Shown piece after piece: positions 4,252-36,708 of a DNA stretch of 43,365 nucleotides. Source of the stretch: a virus (Duplodnaviria > Heunggongvirae > Uroviricota > Caudoviricetes); IMG/VR virus record IMGVR_UViG_3300042863_001217, one strand, 5' to 3'. Positions within the stretch are counted from its first letter, which is position 1. Each line of letters opens with the position of its first letter. A program made the position numbers and the translations under genes. The notes under the pieces were generated by a model. That model saw only the letters and a list, made by a program, of their open reading frames with translations, made no database searches and had not been told where the DNA came from.

Positions 4252-4511
4252 ATTTTGATTTGTTTTTTAATTTTGTTTATTTCAGCGCACTTTTCAAATT
4301 CTTCTTTGATTTCAAAGTGTTTTAACATTGCGCCTAATATAGTGCTCTTACGTTCATCTTCCATATCAGATGCAATAACGTACGTTGGATGATTAGTTAT
4401 AGCTTGATACAATGCGTTAAAAAACATATCGGCATCGTTAGCAACTATACCATCAATGACTTTAAACCAATTTGATTTATTGTTTTTACCACTAGAAAAA
4501 TAACTATTCAT
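4245..4511 (-). CDS. small protein with a C-terminal UVR-like motif
   Basis: AMLKHFEIKEEFEKCAEI. Confidence 0.7.
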   Translation of the reverse strand: MNSYFSSGKNNKSNWFKVIDGIVANDADMFFNALYQAITNHPTYVIASDMEDERKSTILGAMLKHFEIKEEFEKCAEINKIKKQIKIC

Positions 4512-5304
4512 ATTGAGCGTTCTTTACTTTCTCTATATATTCTATCTGCTCATCACTAAGTTCATAATATCTAGCATTTAATTTACATAAGAGCGCACCT
4601 TTATTCTCAGTGCCATATATAGGGTATCCACGATCTTTGATTCTTAGTGTTTTTCCTGGATAACTATTCTTTGGAATGTTAATGTATATCATACCTTCTG
4701 GTGTGTTTACACTCATTTTGGTTCCTAACATTATATCATACCATGGTAAATCTAATTCAATCCATATATCATCATTTTGTAAAATCCACTCAGTCCTATA
4801 CATCACGTGTATGTGTATAATCAAATCACCATTGGGCATTGTACTATTATATTGATGTGGTTGACCTTTACCAGGCACTCTTAATTTCATACCTGTTTTT
4901 AGACCAGGTTTGAAATCAACTTTAATTTCTTGACCATTTACTGCAAATTGTTTTGACGTACCATGATATGCTTCATCAAAACTTAGATGTAGATCTAATC
5001 TTAAATCGGTACCTTTTGTAGTTTGTTGAGAATTGAAAGCATTGCCAAACATTTGATCAAATATATCTGACATGTTGAATCGACCTTCAAATCCTGAAAA
5101 GTTTTGGAAATTAGAAGTACTGTCGTATTTCTTTCTTGAGGATTCATCACCTATTTTTTCATAAGCTTCAGCAATTTGCTTGAATCTGTCATCGCTGCCA
5201 CCATTTTTATCGGGATGATGTTCTTTGGCTAGTTTACGATATGCTTGTTTTATATCATCTTGAGAGGATGATTTGTCTACACCTAATATATTATACGGAT
5301 CCAT
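4504..5304 (-). CDS. dnaJ: DnaJ/CbpA-type co-chaperone (J domain plus C-terminal domain, no zinc finger)
   Basis: DPYNILGV..AYRKLAKEHHPDKN J domain, G/F-rich linker, GDL C-terminal domain. Confidence 0.9.
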   Translation of the reverse strand: MDPYNILGVDKSSSQDDIKQAYRKLAKEHHPDKNGGSDDRFKQIAEAYEKIGDESSRKKYDSTSNFQNFSGFEGRFNMSDIFDQMFGNAFNSQQTTKGTDLRLDLHLSFDEAYHGTSKQFAVNGQEIKVDFKPGLKTGMKLRVPGKGQPHQYNSTMPNGDLIIHIHVMYRTEWILQNDDIWIELDLPWYDIMLGTKMSVNTPEGMIYINIPKNSYPGKTLRIKDRGYPIYGTENKGALLCKLNARYYELSDEQIEYIEKVKNAQYE

Positions 5305-6878: not shown

Positions 6879-8015
6879 TTAATGAGAGTCTCCAATATTG
6901 TTTTTCTCTCCATAAATCAAGTAATCTGGGTTGATTACCTTTGCAACTTTTTGTCTTTCGCCAGTTACATGTTTGATAACAATACCTTCATGTGGTACTT
7001 TACTACCTTCAATAAAGTTATTGAAAACAAAACTATCTTGTACATCTTGGTTCCACAAACCTTCATAAAGAACTTCAGCATGTGGTAATTCTAAAACATC
7101 TTCAATGATATATTGAGTCATTTCAGGATCCATATATTTACCATCAATAGTTAAATCGAATCCTGCAAATCTAATATCTGTTAGACCATAGTCATAATTA
7201 GATTGAATTCCTGCACCGTAGATTTCTCCATAAAGTACAAATCCACCGCCAACTTCTTCGATATCTCTGGTCTTTACAGCTTCCCATAATTTCTGTTTGA
7301 TACCACATTCTTCAGCAACTGTACGCCAAACATCAGTTGAATAGAATCCTTGAGAATCACTTCCCTTTTCTACGTTATGAGAACCATATACATATTCATA
7401 TCCAATCCACTCATCAGCAAATCCAAAGAATTTCTTTAACTTATCAAAGAATGACAATTTGTTTTTGCGAACAATACCAAATCTTGCATTTGTACCATGT
7501 AATTTTCTAGTGATCTGTACGCCATCCTCTTCAGTAAACATGCCTATCACATTCTTTAAGTTTGGAAACTTATAGTAAACTGTAAAGTTAGGATTAGATT
7601 GGTATCTGATCTTTTTACCATTAGCTAATTGAATCTGTTTAACTGGCGGTTCAAATTTAGTAATACCTAAGATTTCCATCATATCATCACCGATCTTTAC
7701 GTTCTTTTCTAATGATTTAGGTGCAAGATATTTAAAAGGAATTAAAAGACATTCAGAATAAACACCGCGCAACTTTACAGTACGCACACGCTGTCCTTTG
7801 CGAAGGTACGATGTTACACTCATCAAATCTGAAAGTGCTTCAGGGATCACGGCATCTGTTGTGGCAACTACCACTTTAGCACCTACTTCATACTCACCTT
7901 TTTTAGTGATTGCATTCCAACCTCCAACTACTGCTAATTCAATATTATCAGCACCTTCGATTGCTTTAATTTCTGTGACTGTTGCTACATAGCAAACTGA
8001 GTTGTTATTTTCCAT
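6879..8015 (-). CDS. ATP-dependent RNA ligase, DRB0094 family
   Basis: N-terminal IEGADNIELAVVGGW module; nucleotidyltransferase motifs KLHG (I), YGEIYG (III), FAGFDL (IIIa), EGIVIK (IV) and KVINPDY (V). Confidence 0.9.
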   Translation of the reverse strand: MENNNSVCYVATVTEIKAIEGADNIELAVVGGWNAITKKGEYEVGAKVVVATTDAVIPEALSDLMSVTSYLRKGQRVRTVKLRGVYSECLLIPFKYLAPKSLEKNVKIGDDMMEILGITKFEPPVKQIQLANGKKIRYQSNPNFTVYYKFPNLKNVIGMFTEEDGVQITRKLHGTNARFGIVRKNKLSFFDKLKKFFGFADEWIGYEYVYGSHNVEKGSDSQGFYSTDVWRTVAEECGIKQKLWEAVKTRDIEEVGGGFVLYGEIYGAGIQSNYDYGLTDIRFAGFDLTIDGKYMDPEMTQYIIEDVLELPHAEVLYEGLWNQDVQDSFVFNNFIEGSKVPHEGIVIKHVTGERQKVAKVINPDYLIYGEKNNIGDSH

Positions 8016-8480: not shown

Positions 8481-8762
8481 TTACTTACCATAATATTGCC
8501 ATAGGACTGCATTACACTTTGCATGAACTGCAGCTTCTGTCATATTAGTTTTGTGACAGTGTTGAAGATGTATTGGATTTCTTAAAAAACCAGGTGGGAA
8601 TAATCTAAAATTGATCTTAGTATTTTCTATATCAATTCTAGGTGGTCCATCTAAAGATCTATCACAAACCGGGCAGATGTTATTCTGTTCTATTGCATAT
8701 TGTTCTCTAACTTCTTTTCGTTGCTTAGAACTTAATTTAGTATAATCAGTTGGCAATTCCAT
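8481..8762 (-). CDS. small His-Me finger, endonuclease VII-like Zn-binding protein
   Basis: QNNICPVCD...HLQHCH...VHAKCN pattern. Confidence 0.65.
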   Translation of the reverse strand: MELPTDYTKLSSKQRKEVREQYAIEQNNICPVCDRSLDGPPRIDIENTKINFRLFPPGFLRNPIHLQHCHKTNMTEAAVHAKCNAVLWQYYGK

Positions 8763-8775
8763 ATCTTAATATTTG

Positions 8776-8883
8776 TAGTCGGGACAGGATTCGAACCTGT
8801 AAGTTAATATCAAAGCTCCACGATATTAGCCATTGCTTTATAGGAACTTTCTAATGTGCGTTTACCAATTCCGCCACCCGACT
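8776..8883 (-). tRNA. non-canonical tRNA-like element (108 nt, no assignable anticodon)
   Basis: Acceptor AGTCGGG/CCCGACT, Leu-like D arm GCG-GAATTGGTAAA-CGC, T arm ACAGG-TTCGAAT-CCTGT, long variable stem AATATC/GATATT. The anticodon arm is a 4-bp stem with an 18-nt loop, and the 3' end reads ACAA rather than NCCA. Confidence 0.6.
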
Positions 8884-9043
8884 GTTTGCAATTATGGTTG
8901 ATTAGACCTCATGAAGTTTATTGCCCTCCAAGCTCAGTTTCCGTAACGGCGCTACTGAATTTCAAAACCCGCTCTTGCCTGCGCCCAAGAGTATGTCGAC
9001 ATGTTTTATAGATACATGTATCATCTGAGTAATCAACTCATTG

Positions 9044-9124
9044 TAGTCAAGGTAGGACTCGAACCTACAACAATACAACCATAAAGGGTGACATAACCAT
9101 TTTGCCATTACGTATTACTTGACT
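9044..9124 (-). tRNA. non-canonical tRNA-like element (81 nt, aberrant D and anticodon region)
   Basis: Acceptor AGTCAAG/CTTGACT, T arm GTAGG-TTCGAGT-CCTAC, 3' ACAA; the interior does not fold as a standard cloverleaf. Confidence 0.5.
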
Positions 9125-9321
9125 CCAACTTATCGACCTGTGTCTTTCGGGGTTTCTGATTGAGTGCAATGAGTGAGCCCTTCCTACTGTAAACCCTTAT
9201 TCGGAAATTAATACACTCTACTTCTCAATTAACAGCAAGCATCGATAAGTAATCCAGTCTGACCTTCCAGACAGTACATGTCACAATTAATTTGGCGCCG
9301 TGTTATGTAGTGGATTTGGGT

Positions 9322-9348
9322 ATTATATTATAAACCTTTAAAAAGTTT
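9322..9348 (-). promoter_or_regulatory. class B promoter (AAAC-N17-TATAAT) for the ncRNA region
   Basis: Exact 17-bp spacer; the predicted start site falls close to the 5' strand of the first helix. Confidence 0.65.
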
Positions 9349-9928
9349 AAATCATAATATCTTTATATTCTGGTTTCCATTCTAACCAAGGTGTATCAAT
9401 TGCTTTCAACATTGTTAGATATTTCCAGTGCATAAATAACTTACGCTCGTTCCAATCTTCATACTTCTTAATCAGATCCGATTGTTTTTCAATTTCAGCT
9501 TTATAAACATCTGCCTTTTCCGTAAGCTTAGTAAAATCATTATCTAATTTTACCATTCTTTTTACAGCTTTTTCAGTTGATAAACCCTGTACTGATAATG
9601 AAACTATCAATTCTTTAAGATTAACTATTTTATCAATCATAGAATTTAGAGTTGGAACACACGCATTATAAGAAGTCTTTGCAGAATCTAGATGTATTTT
9701 AAAACGATCATAGTTTCCTTGTAATTCTTTGTCTGCTAGATCCTCGTGAATCAATTGAGTAACATCAATACCATAATACTTGTCGAAATCATCTCCACCT
9801 GGAAGTGGCGCTTTAGTTGCCAAACCTGCAATTTCTTTGTCTTTAGTTTCTGACAAAATTGCAACGTAACAATTAGCTCGTTGAGTTTCCAATAAATCTT
9901 TAACCTGTTTTTCAGTGTATAGTTTCAT
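9347..9928 (-). CDS. hypothetical coiled-coil protein
   Basis: 193-aa ORF with a helical central region. Confidence 0.75.
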   Translation of the reverse strand: MKLYTEKQVKDLLETQRANCYVAILSETKDKEIAGLATKAPLPGGDDFDKYYGIDVTQLIHEDLADKELQGNYDRFKIHLDSAKTSYNACVPTLNSMIDKIVNLKELIVSLSVQGLSTEKAVKRMVKLDNDFTKLTEKADVYKAEIEKQSDLIKKYEDWNERKLFMHWKYLTMLKAIDTPWLEWKPEYKDIMI

Positions 9929-9932
9929 AATT

Positions 9933-10172
9933 TTATTTTGTGTAATTTCTATCTAATAAATCATGCCATGTTAGGACTCCAACTAAATGTGGAATTGAAT
10001 ATGAATCTGTGTTCATTTCCCAATCTCCATCGAAATTAGTAAATTGAATCATATAACAATCCTCTAATATTGTTACCAAACATTTATCATTGGCCCATTT
10101 ATTAGGACCAACATTCTTAAACGAGTTTCTCTCTAAGAAACTATCTGCATATGGATTTATAATTGCTTCCAT
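9933..10172 (-). CDS. hypothetical protein
   Basis: 79-aa ORF coupled to its neighbours. Confidence 0.7.
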   Translation of the reverse strand: MEAIINPYADSFLERNSFKNVGPNKWANDKCLVTILEDCYMIQFTNFDGDWEMNTDSYSIPHLVGVLTWHDLLDRNYTK

Positions 10173-10585
10173 TATAATTTAACTTCAAAACGATCTCTCA
10201 TTCTTGTTAGTGCCTCATCTGGAACACCGTGTTGGTTTACACCACCGTGTCTATTTTCTACAATTACAGTAAAGACCATATAACCATATTGTTTGGCTAA
10301 GTCAATATATGCCTGCATTTCCCATTCTTGTGTGAACGTATTTGATACCGCGATCTCTCTGTAGAATTGATCATTGACCAGAGAATCTTTCATGTAGGTT
10401 TCTACAAGATTTCTACAAGATTCGTGGGCTTCCTTTAATTTAGATCCATCAAATTTATATTCTCCGTCAACCATAAAATACTTGTCAGCTTCACAAACTA
10501 AAAAGTCTGATCCAACCAAGTCTAATGCAAATGTAGATTTTCCAGATCCTGGCAATCCACGTACGATGTATAATTTTTTATTCAT
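10172..10585 (-). CDS. P-loop kinase (AAA_33, polynucleotide kinase-like); likely start MNKK at 10585
   Basis: IVRGLPGSGKSTFA Walker A, CEADKYF, VSNTF and NQHGVP motifs. Confidence 0.85.
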   Translation of the reverse strand: MNKKLYIVRGLPGSGKSTFALDLVGSDFLVCEADKYFMVDGEYKFDGSKLKEAHESCRNLVETYMKDSLVNDQFYREIAVSNTFTQEWEMQAYIDLAKQYGYMVFTVIVENRHGGVNQHGVPDEALTRMRDRFEVKL

Positions 10586-10727
10586 AATATTGTTGTTTTT
10601 GTGATTCGTAATATTCCTCTTCGGTGATTGGTCTCTTGTCATAAATTGCCTGAGCAACTATAAAACCAAGACAAAATCCTGTTAGTAATATTATCAAAAT
10701 AATCCAATTTGTTTCTTTATTTTCCAT
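10578..10727 (-). CDS. small single-TM membrane protein (49 aa, not in the ORF track)
   Basis: Manual translation MENKETNWIILIILLTGFCLGFIVAQAIYDKRPITEEEYYESQKQQYYE; fills the gap with short overlaps at both ends. Confidence 0.6.
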   Translation of the reverse strand: MENKETNWIILIILLTGFCLGFIVAQAIYDKRPITEEEYYESQKQQYYE

Positions 10728-22857: not shown

Positions 22858-25809
22858 TTATGCGAAATGTCCTACATAGTTACATAATACTTGACCGCTA
22901 TTATTTATTATGAATGATATTACTGATACTAGATTTGGTGCAGTTACAAAATTAATATCTGCTCCAGATGGTGTTAACATGTTTGCTGGTAACTGTGACC
23001 ACGTAGTTCCACTTGGTCCATTTACAAGTATGATAGTTCCTGATTGTCCATAATTAGTAGCTCCAACAGGAGTCATAGTTATTGCAGCAGTTGCTCCACC
23101 TGTAATTTGAAATATATTACCTAAATCTGGAGAAACATTGTATATGCCTCCTGCACCAGTGACTGTGATAATTCTCACCTTTTCTGCTCTTGTAATAATT
23201 ACATCATTAAATTGAACATTTGAATCAGTTTTAGTATCTTGATTCATTGCCGTAGCATATGCGTTAGAAGTACCGGTATCACCTTTTACACCTGAAGATC
23301 CGTTTGTACCATTAGTTCCTGAAGAACCATTAGTTCCATTAGTTCCTGAAGATCCGTTTGTACCATTAGTTCCTGAAGAACCATTAGTTCCGCTAGTTCC
23401 ATTAGTACCACTTGTTCCATTAGTTCCAGAAGAACCAGAACTACCATTCGTTCCTGAAGTACCGTTAGTTCCTGAAGATCCATTTGTACCGTTAGTTCCT
23501 GAAGATCCATTAGTACCACTTGTTCCATTAGTTCCTGAAGTACCGTTAGTTCCTGAAGATCCATTTGTTCCATTAGTTCCTGAAGATCCATTAGTACCAC
23601 TTGTTCCATTAGTTCCTGAAGATCCATTAGTTCCACTTGAACCTGAAGATCCATTTGTACCTGATGTACCATTAGTTCCTGATGTACCATTAGTTCCTGA
23701 AGTTCCGTTAGTTCCACTTGAACCTGAACTACCATTAGTACCACTTGAACCATTAGTTCCTGAAGTTCCAGGAGCACCTTTAGCACCTGAAGTTCCATTT
23801 GTACCAGAAGTTCCATTTGTTCCACTTGAACCTGAACTACCATTAGTTCCTGAAGTTCCATTAGTTCCAGATGTACCGTTAGTTCCACTTGAACCATTTG
23901 TTCCACTAGTTCCATTAGTACCAGTATTACCTTGAGGTCCTTGAATAGAACCGCCTCCCATCCATCCGTCTGTTGAAGTCCATATCCAAAGTGAATCATC
24001 TGCTTGTACAATATATGCATCTCCATTTAAATTACCTTGTGTTGGTAATAATAAAGAAGTTGCAACTTGTCCTTGCATTGTAACGCCCCAACCTGGATTT
24101 CCTTGTACACCTATTTCACCCTTTTGACCTTTAATACCTGAAGTTCCATTAGTTCCAGATGTACCATTTGTACCTGAAGTTCCATTCGTACCGTTTGTTC
24201 CTGAAGATCCATTAGTTCCTGAAGTTCCATTAGTTCCTGAAGTACCATTAGTACCATTTGTACCTGAAGTTCCATTCGTTCCAGAAGAACCAGATGTTCC
24301 ATTAGTTCCAGATGTACCATTTGTACCTGAAGTTCCATTAGTACCACTTGAACCAGAAGATCCATTCGTTCCAGATGTACCGTTAGTTCCTGAAGATCCA
24401 TTCGTTCCAGATGTACCGTTAGTTCCTGAAGTTCCATTAGTACCATTAGTTCCAGAAGATCCATTAGTTCCAGATGTACCATTCGTACCTGAAGTTCCAT
24501 TAGTTCCTGAAGTTCCATTAGTTCCTGAAGTTCCATTTGTACCATTAGTTCCAGAAGTTCCATTAGTTCCAGATGTACCATTCGTACCTGAAGTTCCATT
24601 AGTTCCATTAGTTCCACTTGAACCATTAGTTCCTGAAGTTCCATTAGTTCCACTTGAACCATTAGTTCCTGAAGTTCCATTAGTTCCATTAGTTCCACTT
24701 GAACCATTAGTTCCTGAAGTTCCATTAGTTCCTGAAGTTCCATTTGTACCATTAGTTCCAGAAGTTCCAGGAGCACCTTTAGCACCTGAAGTACCATTAG
24801 TTCCAGATGTACCGTTAGTTCCTGAAGATCCATTAGTACCATTTGTACCTGAAGATCCATTCGTTCCAGATGTACCGTTAGTTCCACTTGAACCAGAAGA
24901 TCCATTCGTTCCAGATGTACCGTTAGTTCCACTTGAACCTGATGTACCTGGAGCACCCTTTAAACCTGTTGCACCTACTGGAATTGTGAATTTCAATATC
25001 GCATTACTTTCAGTACCCATATTAACGACATTGGCAGGAGTACCTTCTAAACCTGTTACAGTAGGATCTATACTAATTACAGCATTCGTTCCAGTTACAC
25101 CTTTGATACCTGAAGTACCATTCGTTCCACTAGTTCCATTAGTTCCGCTTGAACCAGAACTACCATTCGTTCCACTAGTTCCATTCGTTCCTGAAGTACC
25201 ATTAGTTCCATTCGTTCCTGAAGTACCATTAGTTCCAGATGTACCATTAGTACCGCTAGTTCCATTCGTTCCATTAGTACCAGAACTACCATTCGTTCCT
25301 GAAGTACCATTCGTTCCATTAGTTCCTGAAGTTCCTCTGTCACCAATAGGTAGAATAAACATGAATAAGTCATCATTATTAACTAACGATGACCAGTTTG
25401 AACTTGCTATAGGTTCTAAAGCAAGCGTTCTTTCACCTGATCCTAGAGTTACACTATTTACGTAAAATGTTTTGTAGATATTGCCATTGGTTGCACTTGT
25501 AATAACGATGATTGACTTTCTATTATTAGTAGAAAGTGTCATAGCATCTAATGAAATTGTAGCACTAAGACTTTTAGAGCTTGTTTCACTTATAACAAGA
25601 GATGTAGGCGTAACTATATTATTAAATCTTAAAAAACCTGATGCTACCAAACCAGATGTAGAATTACTATATTTATATGGTAATCCAAATGTGTTTGGCA
25701 ATGCTGCGTTTGCATATTTACCAGTGCTTGAATTATACATTAAAACGTCACCGGTAGCTGGTGATGTAGATAGGAATTCAAGAATTTGTTTTAGTTTCAG
25801 TTGAGACAT
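22858..25809 (-). CDS. collagen-like (G-T-N / G-T-S / G-S-S) fibre protein with globular N- and C-terminal domains
   Basis: Long G-X-Y runs with two interruptions, few Pro; C-terminal beta-rich domain. Confidence 0.88.
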   Translation of the reverse strand: MSQLKLKQILEFLSTSPATGDVLMYNSSTGKYANAALPNTFGLPYKYSNSTSGLVASGFLRFNNIVTPTSLVISETSSKSLSATISLDAMTLSTNNRKSIIVITSATNGNIYKTFYVNSVTLGSGERTLALEPIASSNWSSLVNNDDLFMFILPIGDRGTSGTNGTNGTSGTNGSSGTNGTNGTSGTNGTSGTNGTSGTNGTNGTSGTNGTSGTNGSSGSSGTNGTSGTNGTSGIKGVTGTNAVISIDPTVTGLEGTPANVVNMGTESNAILKFTIPVGATGLKGAPGTSGSSGTNGTSGTNGSSGSSGTNGTSGTNGSSGTNGTNGSSGTNGTSGTNGTSGAKGAPGTSGTNGTNGTSGTNGTSGTNGSSGTNGTNGTSGTNGSSGTNGTSGTNGSSGTNGTNGTSGTNGTSGTNGTSGTNGTNGTSGTNGTSGTNGTSGTNGTSGTNGSSGTNGTNGTSGTNGTSGTNGSSGTNGTSGTNGSSGSSGTNGTSGTNGTSGTNGTSGSSGTNGTSGTNGTNGTSGTNGTSGTNGSSGTNGTNGTSGTNGTSGTNGTSGIKGQKGEIGVQGNPGWGVTMQGQVATSLLLPTQGNLNGDAYIVQADDSLWIWTSTDGWMGGGSIQGPQGNTGTNGTSGTNGSSGTNGTSGTNGTSGTNGSSGSSGTNGTSGTNGTSGAKGAPGTSGTNGSSGTNGSSGSSGTNGTSGTNGTSGTNGTSGTNGSSGSSGTNGSSGTNGTSGTNGSSGTNGTNGSSGTNGTSGTNGTSGTNGSSGTNGTNGSSGTNGTSGTNGSSGSSGTNGTSGTNGTSGTNGSSGTNGTNGSSGTNGTNGSSGTNGTNGSSGVKGDTGTSNAYATAMNQDTKTDSNVQFNDVIITRAEKVRIITVTGAGGIYNVSPDLGNIFQITGGATAAITMTPVGATNYGQSGTIILVNGPSGTTWSQLPANMLTPSGADINFVTAPNLVSVISFIINNSGQVLCNYVGHFA
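23270..25344 (-). repeat. coding 9-bp-period degenerate tandem repeat (Gly-X-Y); boundaries approximate
   Basis: Repeated GTTCCATTA / GTTCCTGAA units on the plus strand. Confidence 0.85.
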
Positions 25810-26506: not shown

Positions 26507-27706
26507 TTATTTATATAGATTAGTTGACCAATCATATATAGAACCCAACTTATGATCTTTAATTCCCATCGTAGTTTCAATTAATTGCTTATAAGTCTCT
26601 AATAAACCTTCATTGAATATGGTGTATCGTGTTAGAACTTTCTCACTTCTTTCAGTGTATTCTTCTATATTGTTGTCATGTTGTTCTATTGCCAGTTTCA
26701 GTTGTCTAGCTCCCATACCTATACTATTACCTGAATAATAATATCCGGCGTCCTTAATCATTGGCGCATTATGTACTAACGGAAACTGTAAATAAAGTGC
26801 ATCCAGGTATGAGTAGTTAAGAGGATTTGATAATTGATGTGCAATTACAATATCTGCAAATTGAGCAAGTGCATCAATAGCCATTAGTCTTGGTAAATAT
26901 GTAAGTTTAATAGGATCTGTATTAAAAATAGTAGTATGTTTAATCACTGATGTGTAATATTCACTATGTAAAAGTTTATCTCCACATATAATGTTTAATC
27001 TACTAAACTTTCCACCTGAATTTAAATAATCTTCAGCTATTAATAAGTTATTAATATGCCATTTTTGAATACCAATATTAGGTTCAAAACATGCTAATTG
27101 TTTTTCTTCATTTGCTTTCCCGGGTTTGTATATTGGAATTGGTAATCCTTTTTCTATAACTTCAGAATTGTTATATTTTTCAGAAGTTATATCTAAAAAT
27201 ACAGGATCCCATATAAATGGAACTGGTCTAACTTTACTTGCAGGTAAATTATGTAATACTCTATAATATTCTCTATTTAATTCTTCTTGCTGCGGTACAT
27301 ACCATATCTCGTCAATTTCTTGATTATATCCGGCGGCTCCGGGATTGTTAAATATCACATGTTCGGCATCATTCATATAATTATTACCACATACATATTT
27401 TACAACCTTTTTATTGGGTCCAGTCTTTTTAAAATCTAAAATATCTTGATCAGAATATGTAGCACCCAACCATATCATTAAATCGGTATCGTTTGCTTTT
27501 TCTTTATAATCATATATTGGAAATTCATTTATATCCCATGCAATTTTACCTTCATAAGGTGCTTGAACTTCACTTGCATTTAATATGTATACATTATAAC
27601 CTATTTCTTTTAAAGCCTTAAGTAAATAAAGAGCATTTAATTTAATACCATTTATCCAAATGCTTTCGTTTTCTGTTGACAAGTGAATTGTAATACCAAT
27701 ATTCAT
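26507..27706 (-). CDS. DUF2827-like putative glycosyltransferase
   Basis: SIWINGIKLN, YVCGNNY, VPFIWDP, FEPN, NPLNYSYLDALY..PLVHNA..GYYY; recalled family pattern, not searched. Confidence 0.65.
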   Translation of the reverse strand: MNIGITIHLSTENESIWINGIKLNALYLLKALKEIGYNVYILNASEVQAPYEGKIAWDINEFPIYDYKEKANDTDLMIWLGATYSDQDILDFKKTGPNKKVVKYVCGNNYMNDAEHVIFNNPGAAGYNQEIDEIWYVPQQEELNREYYRVLHNLPASKVRPVPFIWDPVFLDITSEKYNNSEVIEKGLPIPIYKPGKANEEKQLACFEPNIGIQKWHINNLLIAEDYLNSGGKFSRLNIICGDKLLHSEYYTSVIKHTTIFNTDPIKLTYLPRLMAIDALAQFADIVIAHQLSNPLNYSYLDALYLQFPLVHNAPMIKDAGYYYSGNSIGMGARQLKLAIEQHDNNIEEYTERSEKVLTRYTIFNEGLLETYKQLIETTMGIKDHKLGSIYDWSTNLYK

Positions 27707-30212: not shown

Positions 30213-33200
30213 TTATGATTCTACAAAGAATGTTATAATTATGTAAGAAGGCGTAGCTCCTGTTGCAACACCAACTGCTGTTGTAACTGCAGTAAATTGT
30301 ACAGAGGCATTACTTTCTGTATTTATTATTGCATTTACAGAGGCAGTAGTACCTATAATAGCTTTGGTAAATAAATTACCTACACCATCTCTTGCCGTAG
30401 TAGAACCCATTAAAACTGGTTTTCCTAAAGGATGTGTAAGTGTTAGGTTATTGCTTGATTTTGCAATATTCCAACCACTAACTAACCAACCTGATGCACT
30501 ATTGTATATTTCTGTACCATTAGGTGCATACACGTTTGCGATAGGTGTAGTAGCATCTATACTACCAGATAATGTGTTAACTTTAATTTTATAAGCAACT
30601 ATAGCTCCAGTAGCATTTGTTCCATCATTACCTGGAGCACCTTGTACTCCATCGATTCCAGATGTACCATTAATACCATCGATTCCAGAAGTACCATCTA
30701 AACCATTTGTTCCGTCGTTTCCATTAGCACCATCAATACCTGAAGTACCATCAAAACCACTTGTTCCATCAATACCTGAAGTACCATTAGTTCCATCGTT
30801 TCCATTAGCACCTTGTAAACCATCGATTCCAGATGTACCATTTAAACCATCAATTCCTGATGTTCCGTTTAAACCATCGATTCCAGATGTACCATCGTTT
30901 CCATTAGCACCTTGAATTCCATCAATACCTGATGTTCCGTTTAAACCATCGATTCCAGATGTACCATCGTTTCCATTAGCACCTTGAATTCCATCGATTC
31001 CAGAAGTACCATTTGTACCGTCTAAACCATTAGTTCCATCGTTACCATTAGCACCTTGTAAACCATCGATACCTGATGTTCCGTTTAAACCATCGATTCC
31101 AGATGTACCATCGTTTCCATTAGCACCTTGAATTCCATCGATTCCAGAAGTACCATTTGTACCGTCTAAACCATTAGTTCCATCGTTACCATTAGCACCT
31201 TGAATTCCATCGATTCCAGAAGTACCATTTGTACCGTCTAAACCATTAGTTCCATCGTTACCATTAGCACCTTGTAAACCATCGATACCAGAAGTTCCAT
31301 CTAAACCGTTTGTTCCATCGTTACCATTAGTACCTTGAAGTCCATCAATACCTGAAGTACCATTAGTTCCATCGTTACCATTAGCACCTTGAAGTCCATC
31401 GATTCCAGAGGTTCCATCTTGACCAGCTAAACCTGAAGTTCCGTTTTGACCATCAATACCTGATGTTCCATTAATACCTGAAGTTCCAGTATCACCTTGA
31501 ATACCTTGTGCTCCATTAGTTCCTGAAGTTCCGTTTTGACCAGCTAAACCCGAAGTTCCATTTTGACCGTTTATTCCAGATGTACCATCAATACCTGATG
31601 TTCCATCGTTTCCAGCATTACCTTGGTCACCTTGAATACCCTGTGCTCCATTAGTTCCTGAAGTTCCATCTTGACCATTTAAACCGGAAGTTCCATTGAT
31701 ACCAGAAGTTCCACTAACTCCTGAAGTTCCATTAGTTCCACTAGTTCCATTTTCTCCGGCAAGACCTTGATCTCCTTGTGCTCCATTTGTTCCATCAATA
31801 CCTGAACTTCCATTAAGTCCTGAAGTACCATTAACTCCTGAAGTTCCAGCAGGTCCAGTTTCACCTTGATCACCTTTTACACCTATTTCTCCGTTTGTTC
31901 CAGAAGTACCATTAATACCTGATGTACCATCTTGACCATTTATACCTGAAGTACCATCAATTCCTGATGTACCATCGTTTCCATTTATACCGTTTAAACC
32001 AGAAGTTCCATTTGTTCCAGAAGTTCCATCAATACCAGAAGTTCCAGCATTACCTTGTAAACCAGTTTCACCTTGTAAACCAGTTTCACCTTGTAAACCT
32101 TGTGCTCCATCAATACCCGAAGTTCCATCTAAACCATTAATTCCAGAAGTTCCATCTAAACCATTTGTACCATCGTGACCTGAAGTTCCATCAATTCCTG
32201 ATGTACCATTTACTCCAGAAGTTCCATCATTACCAGCAGCTCCTTGTGTTCCATCAATTCCTGATGTACCATCTAAACCATTAGTACCAGATGTACCATC
32301 TAAACCATTTGTACCATTAATTCCTGATGTACCACTTTCGCCATTTGTTCCTGAAGTTCCATCATTACCAACATTACCTTGTGCTCCGTTAATTCCAGAT
32401 GTACCATCTAAACCATTTGTTCCTGAAGTTCCATCATTACCAGCATTACCTTGTGCTCCGTTAATTCCAGAAGTTCCATTGATACCTGATGTACCATCTT
32501 GACCATTGATTCCAGAAGTTCCAGCTAAACCATTGATTCCTGATGTTCCATCTTGACCATTGATTCCAGAAGTTCCAGAAGTTCCATTAGTTCCAGATGT
32601 ACCATCAATACCAGCATCACCTTGTAAACCTTGTGCTCCATTAATACCACTAGTTCCATTGATTCCTGAAGATCCAGAAGTTCCAGACGTAGTAACAGTA
32701 ACTGAAGGGAAAATAACTTCAACACTTCCGTTTCCATCATTATTTACAATTGCACCACCACTAAATTTAATGTTATGTACATCATTTATAGCAGCAGCGC
32801 CGTTTGGTGTGATTGATATACCATGTGGTGAAGAATAAGATTCTGTAAAAATACCTAATTCATCTCCAGCTTCAATTAAGTAAGATGATCCAGGTACATA
32901 TGAATTTCCTTCTGCCTGAACTATTAATTCAATAGCATCATCAGCTTCATTTACAAGAGGATTATTTTGATCAGCGTTAATTACATCAATTCTACTCCAG
33001 CTTTTAATTTCAAATGCAGAATATTCGCTATTATTATTTACGTTAGTTAAGAATAAAGAAACTAAAACACCATCTATATTAATTCTATTCTCTAATACTG
33101 ATTCAAGATATGCATTTCTATAACCCTTATCATCTTTAAGTGCAATTCTAATTTTACTAACACTCGATGGATTTGCAGCATTTAAAATAATTTCACCCTG

Positions 33201-33689
33201 TGCTGGTTTACCAGTGATTGAAAATGATTTTACTTTATATACAGATCCTGGTAAAGTAAATCTACTAGTTACTATATCTCCGACAGCTTTTCCTGCATCA
33301 TAAACATTTGCAACCTTAATAGCAGGTAAGTCAACTTTATTAATACCTAAAGTAGTATAAACTTTAGCTTTTATTGCTCCTGATATATTAGCATCACTAA
33401 ATGGTAAAGCTGCAGTTTGTTCAGCAGATATTGCTATAGATATTTCTCCTTGGAAATCTGAATTAGGTGAACCAAAAACAAGTGTTCCTGATGTTTTTGC
33501 AAATGTAGCAATTAAAGTATTATTAGTGTCAAATAAATCTACTTTAATTTCATTGGCAACCCCAATATTTAGTTGATTACCAATGTAATCTTGGTGTAGC
33601 ATAAGTTTTATGCTATTAGCTTGACCTCTAACGATTCTCGCTACTTCCGGTAATACTAAAATTATGTTTTGATTTGAAACAGTTGGCAT
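30213..33689 (-). CDS. large collagen-like (GTS/GID/GLN/GND) fibre protein
   Basis: About 330-aa globular N-terminus, about 690 aa of G-X-Y, about 110-aa C-terminal domain. Confidence 0.88.
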   Translation of the reverse strand: MPTVSNQNIILVLPEVARIVRGQANSIKLMLHQDYIGNQLNIGVANEIKVDLFDTNNTLIATFAKTSGTLVFGSPNSDFQGEISIAISAEQTAALPFSDANISGAIKAKVYTTLGINKVDLPAIKVANVYDAGKAVGDIVTSRFTLPGSVYKVKSFSITGKPAQGEIILNAANPSSVSKIRIALKDDKGYRNAYLESVLENRINIDGVLVSLFLTNVNNNSEYSAFEIKSWSRIDVINADQNNPLVNEADDAIELIVQAEGNSYVPGSSYLIEAGDELGIFTESYSSPHGISITPNGAAAINDVHNIKFSGGAIVNNDGNGSVEVIFPSVTVTTSGTSGSSGINGTSGINGAQGLQGDAGIDGTSGTNGTSGTSGINGQDGTSGINGLAGTSGINGQDGTSGINGTSGINGAQGNAGNDGTSGTNGLDGTSGINGAQGNVGNDGTSGTNGESGTSGINGTNGLDGTSGTNGLDGTSGIDGTQGAAGNDGTSGVNGTSGIDGTSGHDGTNGLDGTSGINGLDGTSGIDGAQGLQGETGLQGETGLQGNAGTSGIDGTSGTNGTSGLNGINGNDGTSGIDGTSGINGQDGTSGINGTSGTNGEIGVKGDQGETGPAGTSGVNGTSGLNGSSGIDGTNGAQGDQGLAGENGTSGTNGTSGVSGTSGINGTSGLNGQDGTSGTNGAQGIQGDQGNAGNDGTSGIDGTSGINGQNGTSGLAGQNGTSGTNGAQGIQGDTGTSGINGTSGIDGQNGTSGLAGQDGTSGIDGLQGANGNDGTNGTSGIDGLQGTNGNDGTNGLDGTSGIDGLQGANGNDGTNGLDGTNGTSGIDGIQGANGNDGTNGLDGTNGTSGIDGIQGANGNDGTSGIDGLNGTSGIDGLQGANGNDGTNGLDGTNGTSGIDGIQGANGNDGTSGIDGLNGTSGIDGIQGANGNDGTSGIDGLNGTSGIDGLNGTSGIDGLQGANGNDGTNGTSGIDGTSGFDGTSGIDGANGNDGTNGLDGTSGIDGINGTSGIDGVQGAPGNDGTNATGAIVAYKIKVNTLSGSIDATTPIANVYAPNGTEIYNSASGWLVSGWNIAKSSNNLTLTHPLGKPVLMGSTTARDGVGNLFTKAIIGTTASVNAIINTESNASVQFTAVTTAVGVATGATPSYIIITFFVES
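30612..32690 (-). repeat. coding Gly-X-Y repeat with higher-order duplications; boundaries approximate
   Basis: GTSGIDG(L/I)QGANGNDG blocks recur several times at about 30800-31400. Confidence 0.85.
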
Positions 33690-34860: not shown

Positions 34861-35550
34861 TTATATTTGTTTTGGTTTTATGATCTCATCTATAATACCA
34901 TATTTAACTGCTTCTTCTGCATTTAACCAAAAATCTCGAGTAGCATCTTTCATTACTCTTTCTGGTTTCTTGCCACAATATGATCCTAATAGATTAAATA
35001 GTTCATAGTTTACTTTTTGCCATTCTGCCCAATCTACTTCAGCGTCTTGTATATTTCCACTAAAACCACCCGAAGATTGGTGTAACATTGTTGTCGAATG
35101 TCTCAAAGACGCTCTTTTACCTTTAGTTCCAGCACCTAATAAGACTGAACCCATTGATGCTGCCATACCAGTATTAACTGTGCGTATATCACATGGTATG
35201 TATTCCATAACGTCTACCATAGAAAGCCCTGACTTAACTGAACCACCTGGAGAATCGATATGCATTGTAATATCGTCTGCGCTATTGCTTGATAAAAACA
35301 TTAATTGTGCTTGTACAACAGTGCTCATATTGTCATCTACTGGACCTGCAACCCATAATAATCTATCTGCCATTAATCTTGAAAAAATATCCATTTGAGT
35401 AACTCGCATTTCACGCTCCTCTAAAATATAAGGAGTCATTGAAGCTTGCTTACTTGCAATTGAACTATATAAGTCTAAGTGTGATCCACCTAAATTGAAT
35501 TCTGATTTTGCGAATCTGTGAAATTCTTTTTCTTTTGGAAAATAATTCAT
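34861..35550 (-). CDS. clpP: ATP-dependent Clp protease proteolytic subunit
   Basis: MDIFSRL, IDSPGG, GMAASMGS (Ser), MLHQ (His) and RDFWL (Asp). Confidence 0.96.
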   Translation of the reverse strand: MNYFPKEKEFHRFAKSEFNLGGSHLDLYSSIASKQASMTPYILEEREMRVTQMDIFSRLMADRLLWVAGPVDDNMSTVVQAQLMFLSSNSADDITMHIDSPGGSVKSGLSMVDVMEYIPCDIRTVNTGMAASMGSVLLGAGTKGKRASLRHSTTMLHQSSGGFSGNIQDAEVDWAEWQKVNYELFNLLGSYCGKKPERVMKDATRDFWLNAEEAVKYGIIDEIIKPKQI

Positions 35551-35879
35551 TATTGTATCTGTTTTTGTATTTGTTTAATTAAATCACACGTTTCATACTC
35601 TTCAATAAGAGAAAAATAGTTCTTTGCTTTGTTCAAAGATTTTTCATAACCAGATTCTGGTAATACCATCTCGTATTCTCTGTCTTCGGCATCTACTAAA
35701 ATTGCTAGTAAATGTGAATCAGGTTTCCTCTCTATCTTATTTAGTATATATTCTACAATTCTTCTATAGAATATGTCATACTTGGACATTAAGAGTTTTT
35801 CAAAGTCTTCTGCTAAAATATGTGTGGGATCAATATGTATTCTTGGAGGTGTATTCATGTTATAACGTAAAGTAATCAC
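35550..35879 (-). CDS. small protein with a C-terminal UVR-like motif, coupled to clpP
   Basis: AKNYFSLIEEYETCDLI; its stop overlaps the clpP start by 1 nt. Confidence 0.75.
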   Translation of the reverse strand: MITLRYNMNTPPRIHIDPTHILAEDFEKLLMSKYDIFYRRIVEYILNKIERKPDSHLLAILVDAEDREYEMVLPESGYEKSLNKAKNYFSLIEEYETCDLIKQIQKQIQ

Positions 35880-36708
35880 TTAATATTGCTTTGTAGTTAA
35901 CATCACTGTCTCCGCTTGTTTGATCTACTCTTGTTACGAATTCAATTCCAGCATCTGTCAAAAATACATTACCGTCTTTGTAATCTATAAGTGGTTGTTT
36001 TAGAATTAAACTAGATACAGTATCTTTTAAATCTTCTTGTTTGATTTTTTCAGCTAGTTCAAAATGTCTTTCGTAAAAGTGTAAGTTGTCTGCGAAATGG
36101 TAATAATCACCTAATTCTAAAGATTTATACTTGTCATCTTTTTTAAGAATCAAATATACAGATTGCATTAAGAATGAAAAGAACGGTGCATCAAATGTAA
36201 GACCATAGAAAACATCATTTGATCTCATCTGAATCTTCATGTTTAATTTATTATCTCTAATAAAGAAGTTAGCGTACATTGTACATACGAAATCTTTATT
36301 GCCTTTGAATTGAAACTTAGGTTGATTAAAGAACATGATAGCTTGACGACTATTGTCATCAGCTAATAATGAATCAACTACCCAACCAATTTGTTCATTA
36401 TTGATAACTAATGCACCATAATTTGAATTGATTTGGTTTGTACCTTGATTTGTGATACCTTTCCAGAAATTTGAAAATTTATTAATGTAACTAATATCTG
36501 TGTCTCTGTGAAGATACCATGCCATTTCACCTGCAAAGTATTTCCAATTGAATTTTCTTGATTCAAAATTTGCAATTGGTTTTTTAGGATCAATTGTTAT
36601 ATCAGCTAATAATAATTCTTTGACTTCAAGATCTCTCGGTTTCGAGAGATCTCCGAATGTGTCTATTTGTAATATAGCTTCTTTAAGTATATTTGAAAAG
36701 TCTGTCAT
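35860..36708 (-). CDS. dCMP hydroxymethylase-like enzyme (thymidylate synthase superfamily, T4 gp42-like)
   Basis: INSNYG, SRQAIM, KDFVCT (catalytic Cys) and MRSNDVFYGLTFD, with Asp at the base-specificity position. Confidence 0.8.
   Translation of the reverse strand: MTDFSNILKEAILQIDTFGDLSKPRDLEVKELLLADITIDPKKPIANFESRKFNWKYFAGEMAWYLHRDTDISYINKFSNFWKGITNQGTNQINSNYGALVINNEQIGWVVDSLLADDNSRQAIMFFNQPKFQFKGNKDFVCTMYANFFIRDNKLNMKIQMRSNDVFYGLTFDAPFFSFLMQSVYLILKKDDKYKSLELGDYYHFADNLHFYERHFELAEKIKQEDLKDTVSSLILKQPLIDYKDGNVFLTDAGIEFVTRVDQTSGDSDVNYKAILSDYFTL

What the first reader, a model, noticed from the sequence alone, without database searches (positions are those of the whole stretch)
8776..9316. 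About 540-nt promoter-driven structured RNA with two embedded tRNA-like modules
Seen: an ORF-free region with its own AAAC-N17-TATAAT promoter. The 5' part forms a multi-way junction (AATCCA 9311-9316 with TGGATT 9251-9256, enclosing TACAT/ATGTA and GTCTG/CAGAC) and a 9-bp helix (9242-9250 with 9128-9136) enclosing further complementary pairs (GAGTG/CACTC, GGGTTT/AAACCC). Then come tRNA-like module 1, a run of hairpins (TGAGT/ACTCA, ACATGT/ACATGT, CTCTTG/CAAGAG, TCAGT/ACTGA) and module 2. Established: large ornate phage RNAs such as GOLLD and ROOL are often tRNA-associated. Inference: a new or divergent ornate RNA, or a polycistronic precursor in which tRNA mimics serve as RNase P/Z cut sites to release small RNAs.
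Basis: partly seen in the sequence, partly recalled or inferred. Interest (0 to 1): 0.78.

Follow-up and report, generated by a model that had tools for sequence, protein, structure and literature searches.

The report
Phage tRNA-operon-style array of small RNAs
The gene-free stretch is not one big RNA but a string of five separately conserved, folded small RNAs (two tRNA look-alikes that cannot read codons and three new structured RNAs) laid out like a phage tRNA operon, so the host's tRNA-cutting enzymes probably release them.

Summary
The 584-nt ORF-free gap (minus strand) is a mosaic of five independent modules.

- A (9316-9251): a three-way junction whose hairpin loop always carries a GC-rich 6-nt palindrome.
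- B (9250-9128): a closed domain with a pseudoknot.
- M1 (9124-9045): a tRNA-like RNA without an anticodon arm.
- S (9044-8884): a multi-hairpin RNA.
- M2 (8883-8777): a tRNA-Leu frame with a unique insert.

Each module recurs in 10 to over 120 IMG/VR stretches, in different combinations and with compensatory base changes. In related phages they sit flush between genuine tRNA genes in tRNA islands, which are often followed by polynucleotide-kinase-like and RNA-ligase genes.

Rfam 15 and ARAGORN recognise none of them. The GOLLD/ROOL-like "one ornate RNA" reading fails. The "polycistronic precursor cut at tRNA-like units" reading fits best, but transcription and processing were not tested and the function is unknown.

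This scan has already found the Leu-frame family (M2) on other DNA. New here, as far as I could find, are the covariation tests of A, B and S, the A-loop palindrome rule (a kissing-dimer signature) and the link to RNA-repair genes.

The parts
9322..9351 (-). Promoter-like site: TTTAAA (9351-9346), 18-nt spacer, TATAAT (9327-9322), ending 5 nt before module A
   Evidence: Consensus scan, 10 of 12 matches, which is not above chance on its own. A TATAAT/TATAAAT-like box recurs 5-12 nt upstream of A in most homologues. In some loci, however, A follows a tRNA directly.
9251..9316 (-). Module A: 66-nt three-way junction. P1 is AATCCA/TGGATT. P2 is a hairpin whose loop starts with the palindrome GGCGCC (9299-9294). 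P3 is GUCUGG-AAGG-UCAGAC
   Evidence: 69 IMG/VR stretches carry it. In a 37-sequence alignment 97.7% of cells are paired and 12 of 21 pairs are compensatory. Of 12 distinct loops, 11 carry a palindrome of 6 nt or more, of seven kinds at the same place. GGCGCC occurs only once in the 43-kb window.
9128..9250 (-). Module B: 123-nt closed domain. It has a 10-bp closing helix (9250-9241 with 9137-9128), three inner helices, and a pseudoknot GGGUUU/AAACCC
   Evidence: 75 IMG/VR stretches carry it. In a 41-sequence alignment the core is 98% paired, with compensatory change in P2, P4 and the pseudoknot. There are 26 distinct closing helices of 8-12 bp. In other phages it is flanked by tRNA ends.
9045..9124 (-). 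Module M1: 80-nt tRNA-like RNA. It has a 7-bp acceptor stem, a T arm (T loop 9065-9055), a 4-5-bp stem AUAC/GUAU enclosing a D-like hairpin with GG and a mini-hairpin, and no anticodon arm. The discriminator A is at 9044
   Evidence: In an alignment of 10 homologues, 24 pairs are predicted and 9 are compensatory. ARAGORN does not call it. The Rfam tRNA model scores 20.5 bits against a gathering score of 29, and YrlA scores 21.3 against 69.
8884..9044 (-). Module S: 161-nt multi-hairpin RNA that exactly fills the interval between M1 and M2
   Evidence: 26 IMG/VR stretches carry its 17-nt core, and 19 distinct sequences were aligned. 33 pairs are predicted and 16 are compensatory. Except in three chance matches to the 17-mer and the divergent L316, it starts at the discriminator of an upstream tRNA(-like) unit and ends at the next unit.
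8777..8883 (-). Module M2: 107-nt tRNA-Leu-frame ('chassis') RNA. It has the acceptor AGUCGGG/CCCGACU, a Leu-type D arm and a T arm (T loop 8797-8787). A unique 57-nt insert replaces the anticodon and variable arms. The discriminator A is at 8776
   Evidence: The frame matches the family consensus at 24 of 26 nt (5') and 27 of 28 nt (3'). The acceptor difference is a compensatory pair. The family has more than 120 exact 21-mer hits in IMG/VR. ARAGORN and Rfam tRNA do not call it.
10172..10657 (-). Context: P-loop polynucleotide-kinase-like gene (161 aa)
   Evidence: Pfam AAA_33 6e-10 and PHROG polynucleotide kinase. Homologues lie downstream of A-led tRNA arrays in about 26 loci.
6879..8015 (-). 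Context: RNA ligase gene (378 aa; N-terminal OB domain plus RNA_ligase domain)
   Evidence: Pfam PF09414 3e-16 and PF21189 3.5e-13; PHROG 968 3e-59. Homologues of 66-73% identity follow the PNK-like gene after A-led tRNA arrays.

Best explanation
The stretch is a compact non-coding RNA operon built like a phage tRNA operon. It belongs to an uncultured T4-related jumbo phage.

It encodes five separate folded RNAs in a row on the minus strand: A, B, M1, S and M2. M1 and M2 keep the part of a tRNA that RNase P, the 3'-end processing enzymes and the CCA-adding enzyme recognise, namely the stacked 7-bp acceptor stem and 5-bp T arm plus an elbow. They have no anticodon arm, so they cannot decode.

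The likely sequence of events is as follows. Transcription starts just upstream of A. RNase P cuts at the 5' ends of M1 and M2. 3' processing cuts at their discriminator A. This yields four stable species: an A-B leader of about 190 nt, M1 of 80 nt, S of about 160 nt and M2 of 107 nt. A probably pairs with a second copy of itself through its palindromic loop, as a kissing dimer.

Shown here: the structures, their conservation, their modularity, and their position among real tRNA genes and RNA-repair genes in relatives.

Inferred: transcription, the cleavage sites, dimerisation, and a role in the phage-host conflict over tRNAs (as decoys for, or binders of, tRNA-directed host factors). The last of these is the weakest step.
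For: 1. Structure. Covariation supports every module: A, B including its pseudoknot, M1 and S.
2. Selection. The RNA modules are better conserved than the neighbouring protein gene at the DNA level. Against L044 the gene is 70% identical, A 98%, S 93% and B 85%.
3. Modularity. The modules occur in different combinations and orders.
4. tRNA-operon context.
   - In tRNA-island contigs A precedes blocks of real tRNAs, with tRNA-Cys first in most of those scanned.
   - B and S lie flush between tRNA ends.
   - In L312, S spans 937-1097, between tRNAs at 865-938 and 1097-1182.
5. Shared processing signals. M1 and M2 have 7+5-bp acceptor/T stacks and the same A-C-A-A trailer as the real tRNAs of these arrays, none of which encodes CCA.
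6. Palindrome rule in the loop of A. Seven different GC-rich hexamers occur at one position. The chance product is about 5e-9 as computed, or about 2e-8 for the seven GC-rich hexamers alone. The short variants have 9-nt loops built like the HIV-1 dimerisation hairpin; that comparison is from my own knowledge.
7. Linkage to RNA repair. The window places the array between a PNK-like kinase gene and an RNA ligase gene. The same two genes follow A-led tRNA arrays in many contigs.
Against: - There are no expression or end-mapping data.
- The promoter match is no better than chance in AT-rich DNA, and no terminator follows. The array may therefore simply be part of a longer mRNA that runs into the 93-aa ORF 14 nt downstream of M2.
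- In some relatives A follows a tRNA rather than a promoter-like box.
- The whole-region fold is not unusually stable.
- RNase P or Z cleavage of anticodon-less mimics is plausible from minimal-substrate work (established knowledge) but was not tested for these RNAs or this host.
- Linkage to RNA-repair genes is not universal. Many close relatives have a DNA ligase as the next gene.
- Nothing here points to a specific target. The M2 insert has no significant antisense match in the window.
Confidence: 0.65

Rival explanations
1. One large ornate RNA, GOLLD- or ROOL-like, of about 540 nt. It would fold and act as a single molecule, with the tRNA-like parts as embedded domains.
For: The modules abut with linkers of 0-3 nt. 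A carries a self-complementary loop; from my own knowledge, large ornate RNAs use such loops to build multimers. GOLLD and ROOL are also often found near tRNA genes in phages (established knowledge).
Against: There is no Rfam match even at E up to 10. Each module has its own closing helix and occurs without the others in relatives. No long-range pairing between modules was found. The whole-region fold has z = +1.15.
Confidence: 0.05
2. A decaying tRNA gene cluster. M1 and M2 would be tRNA pseudogenes and A, B and S meaningless spacers.
For: ARAGORN finds no tRNA. Relatives carry real tRNAs at the equivalent place. The region clearly derives from a tRNA operon.
Against: The frames of M1 and M2 are nearly invariant while only the centre differs. 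Compensatory changes keep every helix. The RNA modules are more conserved than the adjacent coding DNA. B and S recur in 75 and 26 stretches.
Confidence: 0.05
3. A cis-acting 5' leader for the downstream genes (the EndoVII-like ORF, the 127-aa ORF and the RNA ligase). A and B would act as an antitermination or riboswitch-like control element rather than as free RNAs.
For: A is usually the first element after a promoter-like box. No terminator separates M2 from the next ORF, which starts 14 nt downstream. Long untranslated transcripts in bacteria often need protection from premature termination (established knowledge).
Against: In other phages B is flanked on both sides by tRNAs, and A by tRNAs on its 3' side, with no ORF to control. 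The downstream gene differs among relatives: RNA ligase, DNA ligase, metallophosphatase or ATP-grasp.
Confidence: 0.12
4. M1 and/or M2 are working adaptor tRNAs of unusual shape. They might have an intron or an expanded loop that is removed or tolerated, and would decode after maturation, perhaps with help from the neighbouring kinase and ligase.
For: A healing-and-sealing enzyme pair flanks the array. A few family members are called as odd tRNAs by ARAGORN or pass the Rfam tRNA threshold (L317 2095-2189, 38.6 bits).
Against: Family inserts share no conserved anticodon-stem halves or variable arm on either side of a putative intron. The centres are unrelated in sequence and range from 17 to about 110 nt. 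Neither M1 nor M2 has a 5-bp stem with a 7-nt loop at the tRNA position.
Confidence: 0.04

Closest known systems
Bacteriophage T4 species 1 and species 2 RNAs (rnaC, rnaD)
   Same: They are small stable RNAs of unknown function encoded in a phage tRNA operon, next to tRNA genes and a homing endonuclease gene (annotation fetched). rnaC carries a tRNA-type T arm. They work like the model proposed here: by-products or co-products of tRNA-operon processing.
   Different: Apart from the 11-nt T loop, only chance-level matches of 7-8 nt link them to any module here. Their architectures differ. Here there are five modules, each with its own wide family.
Class II tRNA-Leu (Rfam RF00005)
   Same: M2 has a 7-bp acceptor stem, U8, a Leu-type D arm, a canonical T arm and the discriminator A73. 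Its D arm matches that of a genuine phage tRNA-Leu(UAA) in L039 at 15 of 19 positions, and the stem differences are compensatory.
   Different: M2 has no anticodon arm. ARAGORN does not call it and Rfam tRNA gives no hit at E up to 10. A unique 57-nt insert takes the place of the anticodon and variable arms.
Phage 'tRNA-Leu chassis' RNAs seen earlier by this scan (e1-5376335, e1-1836382, e1-1873350 and others); I found no publication
   Same: M2 shares the near-invariant frame. M2 reads AGUCGGG-UG-GCGGAAUUGGUAAACGC ... ACAGGUUCGAAUCCUGU-CCCGACU-ACAA; the family consensus has AGUCAGG, GGUAGACGC and CCUGACU. The centre is hypervariable.
   Different: Here there is only one such unit, not an array of 7-14. 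It is embedded among three other RNA families (A, B, S) and a second, conserved kind of tRNA mimic (M1).
YrlA, the bacterial Y RNA-like RNA (Rfam RF02553)
   Same: It is a non-coding RNA with a tRNA-like module encoded near RNA-repair genes. It gave the best, though sub-threshold, Rfam hit on M1.
   Different: The score is 21.3 bits against a gathering score of 69. YrlA has its ends at the Ro-binding stem and a closed acceptor-like arm, whereas M1 has free ends at the acceptor stem. No TROVE/Ro60 protein appeared among the 30 window proteins scanned.
HIV-1 dimerisation initiation site and other kissing-loop hairpins
   Same: The P2 loop of A always holds a GC-rich 6-nt palindrome. The short variants have 9-nt loops of the form two nt, hexamer, A.
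   Different: The context is unrelated (DNA phage, tRNA operon). Dimerisation was not tested. The long variants have loops of 14-19 nt.
GOLLD (RF01998) and ROOL (RF03087)
   Same: They are structured RNAs of phages that are often found near tRNA genes.
   Different: There is no Rfam match. The present region is a chain of separable small RNAs.

Membership tests
tRNA (Rfam RF00005 / ARAGORN) | 7-bp acceptor stem stacked on a 5-bp T stem with a GTTCRANTC-type T loop | tested here: met
   Both M1 and M2 have it. The T-loop motif occurs twice in the window; 0.08 are expected.
tRNA (Rfam RF00005 / ARAGORN) | Anticodon arm (5-bp stem, 7-nt loop) at the canonical place, and a score at or above the family threshold | tested here: not met
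   ARAGORN finds 0 genes in the window. Rfam tRNA scores 20.5 bits against a gathering score of 29 on M1 and gives no hit on M2 at E up to 10.
Phage tRNA-Leu-chassis RNAs (unpublished; seen earlier by this scan) | Near-invariant frame: AGUCAGG acceptor, UGGCGGAAUUGGUAGACGC D arm, ACAGGUUCGAAUCCUGU T arm, CCUGACU, A-C-A-A trailer | tested here: met
   M2 matches at 24 of 26 and 27 of 28 positions. The acceptor difference A5-U68 to G5-C68 is compensatory. M1 does not have this D region and is not a member.
Phage tRNA-Leu-chassis RNAs (unpublished; seen earlier by this scan) | A hypervariable structured insert in place of the anticodon and variable arms | tested here: met
   The 57-nt insert of M2 has no relative among 81 distinct units, whose inserts range from 17 to about 110 nt.
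YrlA (RF02553) | Score at or above the gathering score; Ro60/Rsr gene nearby; RNA ends in the Ro-binding stem | tested here: not met
   The score is 21.3 bits against 69. No TROVE domain appeared among 30 window proteins scanned with Pfam or PHROGs; not every ORF was scanned. M1 has its ends at the acceptor stem.
GOLLD / ROOL / tmRNA / RNase P RNA | A match to the Rfam covariance model | tested here: not met
   There are no hits at gathering score in the window and none at E up to 10 in 8600-9450. ARAGORN finds no tmRNA. Relatives give only tRNA hits at or above gathering score, with nothing on A, B or S.
T4 rnaC / rnaD type stable RNAs of tRNA operons | Encoded within a phage tRNA operon, flush with tRNA genes | tested here: met
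   This holds for the families of A, B and S in relatives. In the window itself only tRNA-like units remain.
T4 rnaC / rnaD type stable RNAs of tRNA operons | Sequence or structural homology to rnaC or rnaD | tested here: not met
   Only the 11-nt T loop is shared with rnaC. The other matches are 7-8 nt and at chance level.
T4 rnaC / rnaD type stable RNAs of tRNA operons | Accumulates as a stable processed RNA during infection | not testable with these tools
   No transcriptome data are available for this uncultured phage.
Kissing-loop dimerisation hairpins | A self-complementary hexamer exposed in a hairpin loop and kept palindromic while its sequence changes | tested here: met
   Seven hexamers occur: GGCGCC, CGCGCG, CACGTG, CGATCG, AGCGCT, ACCGGT, TGCGCA. 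Of 12 distinct loops, 11 carry a palindrome of 6 nt or more.
Kissing-loop dimerisation hairpins | The RNA forms a dimer | not testable with these tools
   This needs a native gel or SEC with loop mutants.

The most novel reading that the evidence does not exclude
The operon would be a phage RNA toolkit for the conflict over tRNAs.

M1 and M2 would be matured like tRNAs, CCA-tailed, and in the case of the Leu frame perhaps even leucylated. From my own knowledge, bacterial LeuRS does not read the anticodon. These mimics would occupy or mislead host tRNA-directed defence nucleases or tRNA enzymes, while the neighbouring kinase and ligase mend cut tRNAs.

A, B and S would be trans-acting partners released by the same cuts. 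A would act as a kissing-loop homodimer, and B as a pseudoknotted ligand- or protein-binding fold.
Probability: 0.15. Interest if true: 0.85.

Novelty: new variant of a known kind. Interest (0 to 1): 0.62.

Why it matters
Phage tRNA clusters are now seen as counter-defence loci against host nucleases that cut tRNAs. The only long-known extra RNAs in such clusters, T4 rnaC and rnaD, have had no assigned function for fifty years.

This locus shows that a broad group of uncultured aquatic phages packs its tRNA operons with at least five further RNA families that are supported by covariation:
- a three-way junction with a self-complementary loop;
- a pseudoknotted closed domain;
- a 160-nt multi-hairpin RNA;
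- two kinds of tRNA mimic that cannot decode.

None of them is in Rfam 15, and their arrays are often followed by RNA-repair genes. That provides defined sequences, boundaries and testable predictions (cleavage sites, dimerisation, aminoacylation) for a class of phage RNAs whose role is open. It also provides natural examples of the tRNA-scaffold principle used in RNA engineering.

Tried and rejected
- Whole-region folding: MFE -130.3 kcal/mol, z = +1.15, so uninformative.
- Nucleotide search of 50,697 GenBank phage records: no match, so no cultured relative was found.
- No whole genome is held for this window.
- Scan of 185,579 species genomes for the conserved core of A: 61 hits. Sixty are chance matches lacking the rest of A. 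One real copy lies on a 637-nt contig binned to an Aequorivita MAG. That is too weak to name a host.
- The conserved upstream 193-aa protein:
  - no Pfam or PHROG family;
  - the AlphaFold model (pLDDT 77.5) is a long helical hairpin;
  - Foldseek against PDB gives nothing at E <= 0.001, only generic coiled coils;
  - A also occurs without it.
  No functional link can be claimed.
- Idea that the 93-aa EndoVII-like gene is tied to tRNA-like units: only 3 of 24 distinct upstream regions end in a tRNA-type 3' end. Rejected.
- Antisense targets of the M2 insert within the window: the best match is 12 nt at E = 0.1, which is chance level.
- Pairing of the palindrome of A with the GCGCC stretch of S: it does not covary between loci, judged by eye. 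Rejected.
- Homology to T4 rnaC or rnaD: none beyond the T loop.
- Literature searches found no description of these RNAs. The 2023 catalogue of 8,495 IMG/VR candidate RNAs (PMC10690425) could not be checked, because no supplementary files are held.
- In S, a local hairpin UGAGU/ACUCA competes with a long-range helix GUUGAU/AUCAAC. L174 and L312 favour the local hairpin and RNAalifold favours the long-range one. Unresolved.
- In B, an alternative 7-bp pairing GAGUGUA/UGCACUC competes with P2/P3. It is not separable on nearly invariant columns.
Full report
**Where and what.**
All genes of the 43-kb window lie on the minus strand, and so do the features of the finding. Between the stop of a 193-aa ORF (9347-9928) and the start of a 93-aa EndoVII-like ORF (8481-8762) lies a 584-nt gap with no ORF above 51 aa. 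GC is 0.41 in the gap against about 0.30 in the flanks.

- ARAGORN finds no tRNA or tmRNA in the window.
- Rfam 15 gives nothing at gathering score.
- At E up to 10 the only hits of any relevance are YrlA (21.3 bits, gathering score 69) and tRNA (20.5 bits, gathering score 29), both on the first tRNA-like module. The other two hits are chance-level.
- The region has no nucleotide match among 50,697 GenBank phage records.
- Folded as one 556-nt molecule it is no more stable than shuffled sequence (z = +1.15).

**Relatives.**
Homologues of the two flanking ORFs brought in 53 IMG/VR loci. The gap after the 193-aa gene is 300-1400 nt long in those loci and holds one to five tRNA-type T arms. BLAST shows that the window's region is a mosaic: separate pieces match different loci, in different orders, at 72-98% identity. 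From these matches I defined five modules in window coordinates:

| Module | Coordinates |
|---|---|
| A | 9316-9251 |
| B | 9250-9128 |
| M1 | 9124-9045 |
| S | 9044-8884 |
| M2 | 8883-8777 |

L032 lacks B, L042 lacks S and L048 lacks M1. The RNA pieces are better conserved than the adjacent protein gene at the DNA level. Against L044 the gene is 70% identical, A 98%, S 93% and B 85%.

**Module A.**
A degenerate 19-mer from its third helix finds 69 IMG/VR stretches.

- In an alignment of 37 distinct sequences, my three-helix model has 97.7% of cells paired. With the partners slid by 1-3 columns the figure is 24-34%.
- 12 of 21 pairs show changes on both sides, and the covariation score is 0.495 against 0.05-0.10 for the slid controls.
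- The loop of the second helix always begins with, or contains, a GC-rich self-complementary hexamer: GGCGCC (window, 9299-9294), CGCGCG, CACGTG, CGATCG, AGCGCT, ACCGGT or TGCGCA.
- Of 12 distinct loops, 11 have a palindrome of 6 nt or more and the twelfth has ACGT. The product of the per-loop chance values is about 5e-9 as computed, or about 2e-8 for the seven GC-rich hexamers alone.
- GGCGCC occurs nowhere else in the window.
- The short variants have 9-nt loops of the form two nucleotides, hexamer, A. From my own knowledge this is the layout of the HIV-1 dimerisation hairpin.

The sequence changes while the palindromic character stays, inside a hairpin whose stem covaries. I therefore read it as an RNA-RNA kissing contact between two copies. 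That is an inference.

**Where A sits.**
- In the 193-aa sub-lineage A directly follows the gene and a TATAAT/TATAAAT-like box 5-12 nt upstream.
- In many other contigs it lies inside islands of 7-25 genuine tRNA genes. There it precedes a block that begins with tRNA-Cys in most of the loci scanned.
- In a few loci A follows a tRNA 3' end rather than a promoter-like box.
- Among 185,579 species genomes only one real copy was found, on a 637-nt contig binned to an Aequorivita MAG. The other 60 pattern hits lack the rest of the element.

**Module B.**
A 21-mer from its core finds 75 IMG/VR stretches.

- All 41 aligned homologues close with a helix of 8-12 bp. There are 26 different closing-helix sequences, falling into several unrelated classes.
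- The core is 98% paired, against 35-49% for slid controls.
- Compensatory change occurs in P2 (A-U 32, G-C 8), in P4 (U-A 19, A-U 16, G-U 5, G-C 1), and in the pseudoknot helix GGGUUU/AAACCC (U-A 21, A-U 18, two unpaired).
- GAGUG/CACUC varies only by wobble in that set. A compensatory change at this helix is seen in the L044 type.
- In other phages B begins right after a tRNA or tRNA-like 3' end and is followed by the next tRNA.

**Modules M1 and M2.**
Both have perfect 7-bp acceptor stems, 5-bp T stems and a canonical T loop. The T-loop motif occurs only at these two places in the window, where 0.08 are expected.

*M2* carries the frame of a family that gives more than 120 exact hits in IMG/VR to a 21-mer.
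- That family has 81 distinct units of 70-162 nt, with an almost invariant 5' 26 nt and 3' 28 nt and unrelated centres.
- M2 differs from the consensus frame at three positions, two of which form a compensatory acceptor pair.
- Its D arm resembles that of a genuine phage tRNA-Leu(UAA) in L039: 15 of 19 positions match and the stem changes are compensatory.
- Its 57-nt centre has no relative in the loci and no significant antisense match in the window.

*M1* is of a different kind.
- After U8-A9, a 4-5-bp stem (AUAC/GUAU, covarying with UUGC/GCAA) encloses a D-like hairpin with a GG loop and a CC/GG mini-hairpin. A 4-nt link and the T arm follow.
- Of 24 predicted pairs, 9 show compensatory change in 10 homologues.
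- The strict M1 signature is confined to the 193-aa sub-lineage.

Neither RNA has an anticodon arm.

**Module S.**
A 17-mer from its core finds 26 stretches. In 19 aligned sequences RNAalifold predicts 33 pairs, 16 of them with compensatory change.

In the homologues (three of the pattern hits are chance matches, and the divergent L316 has no upstream unit) S starts at the discriminator of an upstream tRNA or tRNA-like unit. It ends a few nucleotides before the next one. In L312 it spans 937-1097, between tRNAs that Rfam places at 865-938 (69.9 bits) and 1097-1182 (58.2 bits). Rfam gives no hit on A, B or S in six relatives at E up to 0.5.

**Processing logic.**
The genuine tRNAs of the A-led arrays do not encode CCA. 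They end with discriminator, C, A, A. M1 and M2 end the same way (A-C-A-A).

It is established knowledge that bacterial RNase P and RNase Z recognise the acceptor/T-arm stack and do not need the anticodon arm. From that I infer cuts at 9125/9124 and 8884/8883, and at the discriminators 9044 and 8776. These would release A-B (about 190 nt), M1, S and M2. None of this was tested.

No terminator-like site follows M2, and the next ORF starts 14 nt downstream. Read-through into mRNA is therefore likely, as in T4 tRNA transcription units (my own knowledge).

**Gene context.**
- Upstream lies a P-loop polynucleotide-kinase-like gene (10172-10657). Downstream lies an RNA ligase with an N-terminal OB domain (6879-8015).
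- Homologues of both (55-64% and 66-73% identity in most loci) lie 2.5-4 kb downstream of A-led tRNA arrays in about 20-26 other loci.
- In many close relatives the next gene after the array is instead a DNA ligase.
- The 193-aa protein has no family and models as a helical hairpin with no significant structural match.
- The EndoVII-like gene roams among contexts; only 3 of 24 are next to a tRNA-type end.
- No TROVE/Ro60 protein was seen among 30 window proteins scanned.

**Comparison with what is known.**
- The closest functional counterpart is the pair of T4 stable RNAs rnaC and rnaD at the end of the T4 tRNA operon. Only the T loop is shared with them; the other matches are 7-8 nt and at chance level.
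- M2 works like a class II tRNA-Leu top half without the decoding half. It is a member of the frame family that this scan has already reported on other DNA.
- Earlier notes also mention a B-like pseudoknot domain and an alternation of unknown RNAs with tRNA-like units in other genomes. I used these as leads and tested them here.
- I found no paper that describes A, B, S, M1 or the frame family. A 2023 catalogue of IMG/VR candidate RNAs may contain some of them but could not be checked.

**Verdict.**
The 'single ornate RNA' reading is rejected. The 'polycistronic precursor' reading is the best supported, with expression, cleavage, dimerisation and function still to be shown.

Noticed in passing
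window 8481-8762 (-): A 93-aa EndoVII-like small nuclease gene (PHROG 14729, E 4e-30) starts 14 nt after M2. Its 31 IMG/VR homologues sit in very different contexts, and only 3 of 24 lie behind a tRNA-type 3' end. It looks like a roaming, possibly homing-type gene.
   Followed up: partly
window 9347-9928 (-): A 193-aa protein with no Pfam or PHROG family lies directly upstream of module A in about 40 loci. The AlphaFold model is a long antiparallel helical hairpin. No significant PDB match was found.
   Followed up: partly
L001:2893-2984 and L210, L212, L215, L228 (about 17 nt after module A): A 92-nt tRNA-like unit contains two T-arm motifs, one nested inside the other unit's body (GGTCGGTTCGAGTCCGAT within an acceptor/T frame). 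It is a further kind of tRNA mimic that follows module A.
   Followed up: no
L037:4552-4755 and L038:4176-4379: A 204-nt unit with a perfect acceptor stem (CGGCCAG/CTGGCTG), a T arm, and an insert of about 150 nt. It is conserved between two contigs.
   Followed up: no
L317:2095-2189: One Leu-frame unit scores 38.6 bits on the Rfam tRNA model, above the gathering score of 29. Automatic annotation will therefore call some family members tRNAs.
   Followed up: no
L043:4478-5287 and L043:5338-6228: Right after the RNA array in one relative lies an ORF with weak, sub-threshold Hint/intein-splicing matches, and then a DUF7487 protein with a weak Vsr-like match. Mobile-element-type genes may cluster at this spot.
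   Followed up: no
L040:1761-2426: In one relative a gene with a weak, borderline calcineurin-like metallophosphoesterase match follows the array and precedes the PNK-like gene. It could be the end-healing phosphoesterase of an RNA-repair set.
   Followed up: no
window 34861-35550, 36736-38751, 4504-5304 (-): The phage encodes ClpP, an AAA+ ATP-dependent protease (PHROG 4871) and a full DnaJ. That is a sizeable proteostasis set for a virus.
   Followed up: no
window 39605-40899 and 26507-27706 (-): A CMP-sugar cytidylyltransferase (CTP_transf_3), a SIS-domain protein and a DUF2827 protein lie near collagen-like fibre genes (22858-25809, 30213-33689). These are sugar-pathway genes for virion or host-surface modification.
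   Followed up: no
window 35860-36708 and 40903-42018 (-): Two separate thymidylate-synthase-family genes lie within 6 kb of each other. One of them may act on a modified pyrimidine.
   Followed up: no
L246:383-458: The only copy of module A in cellular-genome assemblies is on a 637-nt contig binned to an Aequorivita (Flavobacteriaceae) MAG. It lies directly after a tRNA 3' end and its loop palindrome is TGCGCA. This is probably phage DNA in the bin, and it is a weak hint at the host group.
   Followed up: partly
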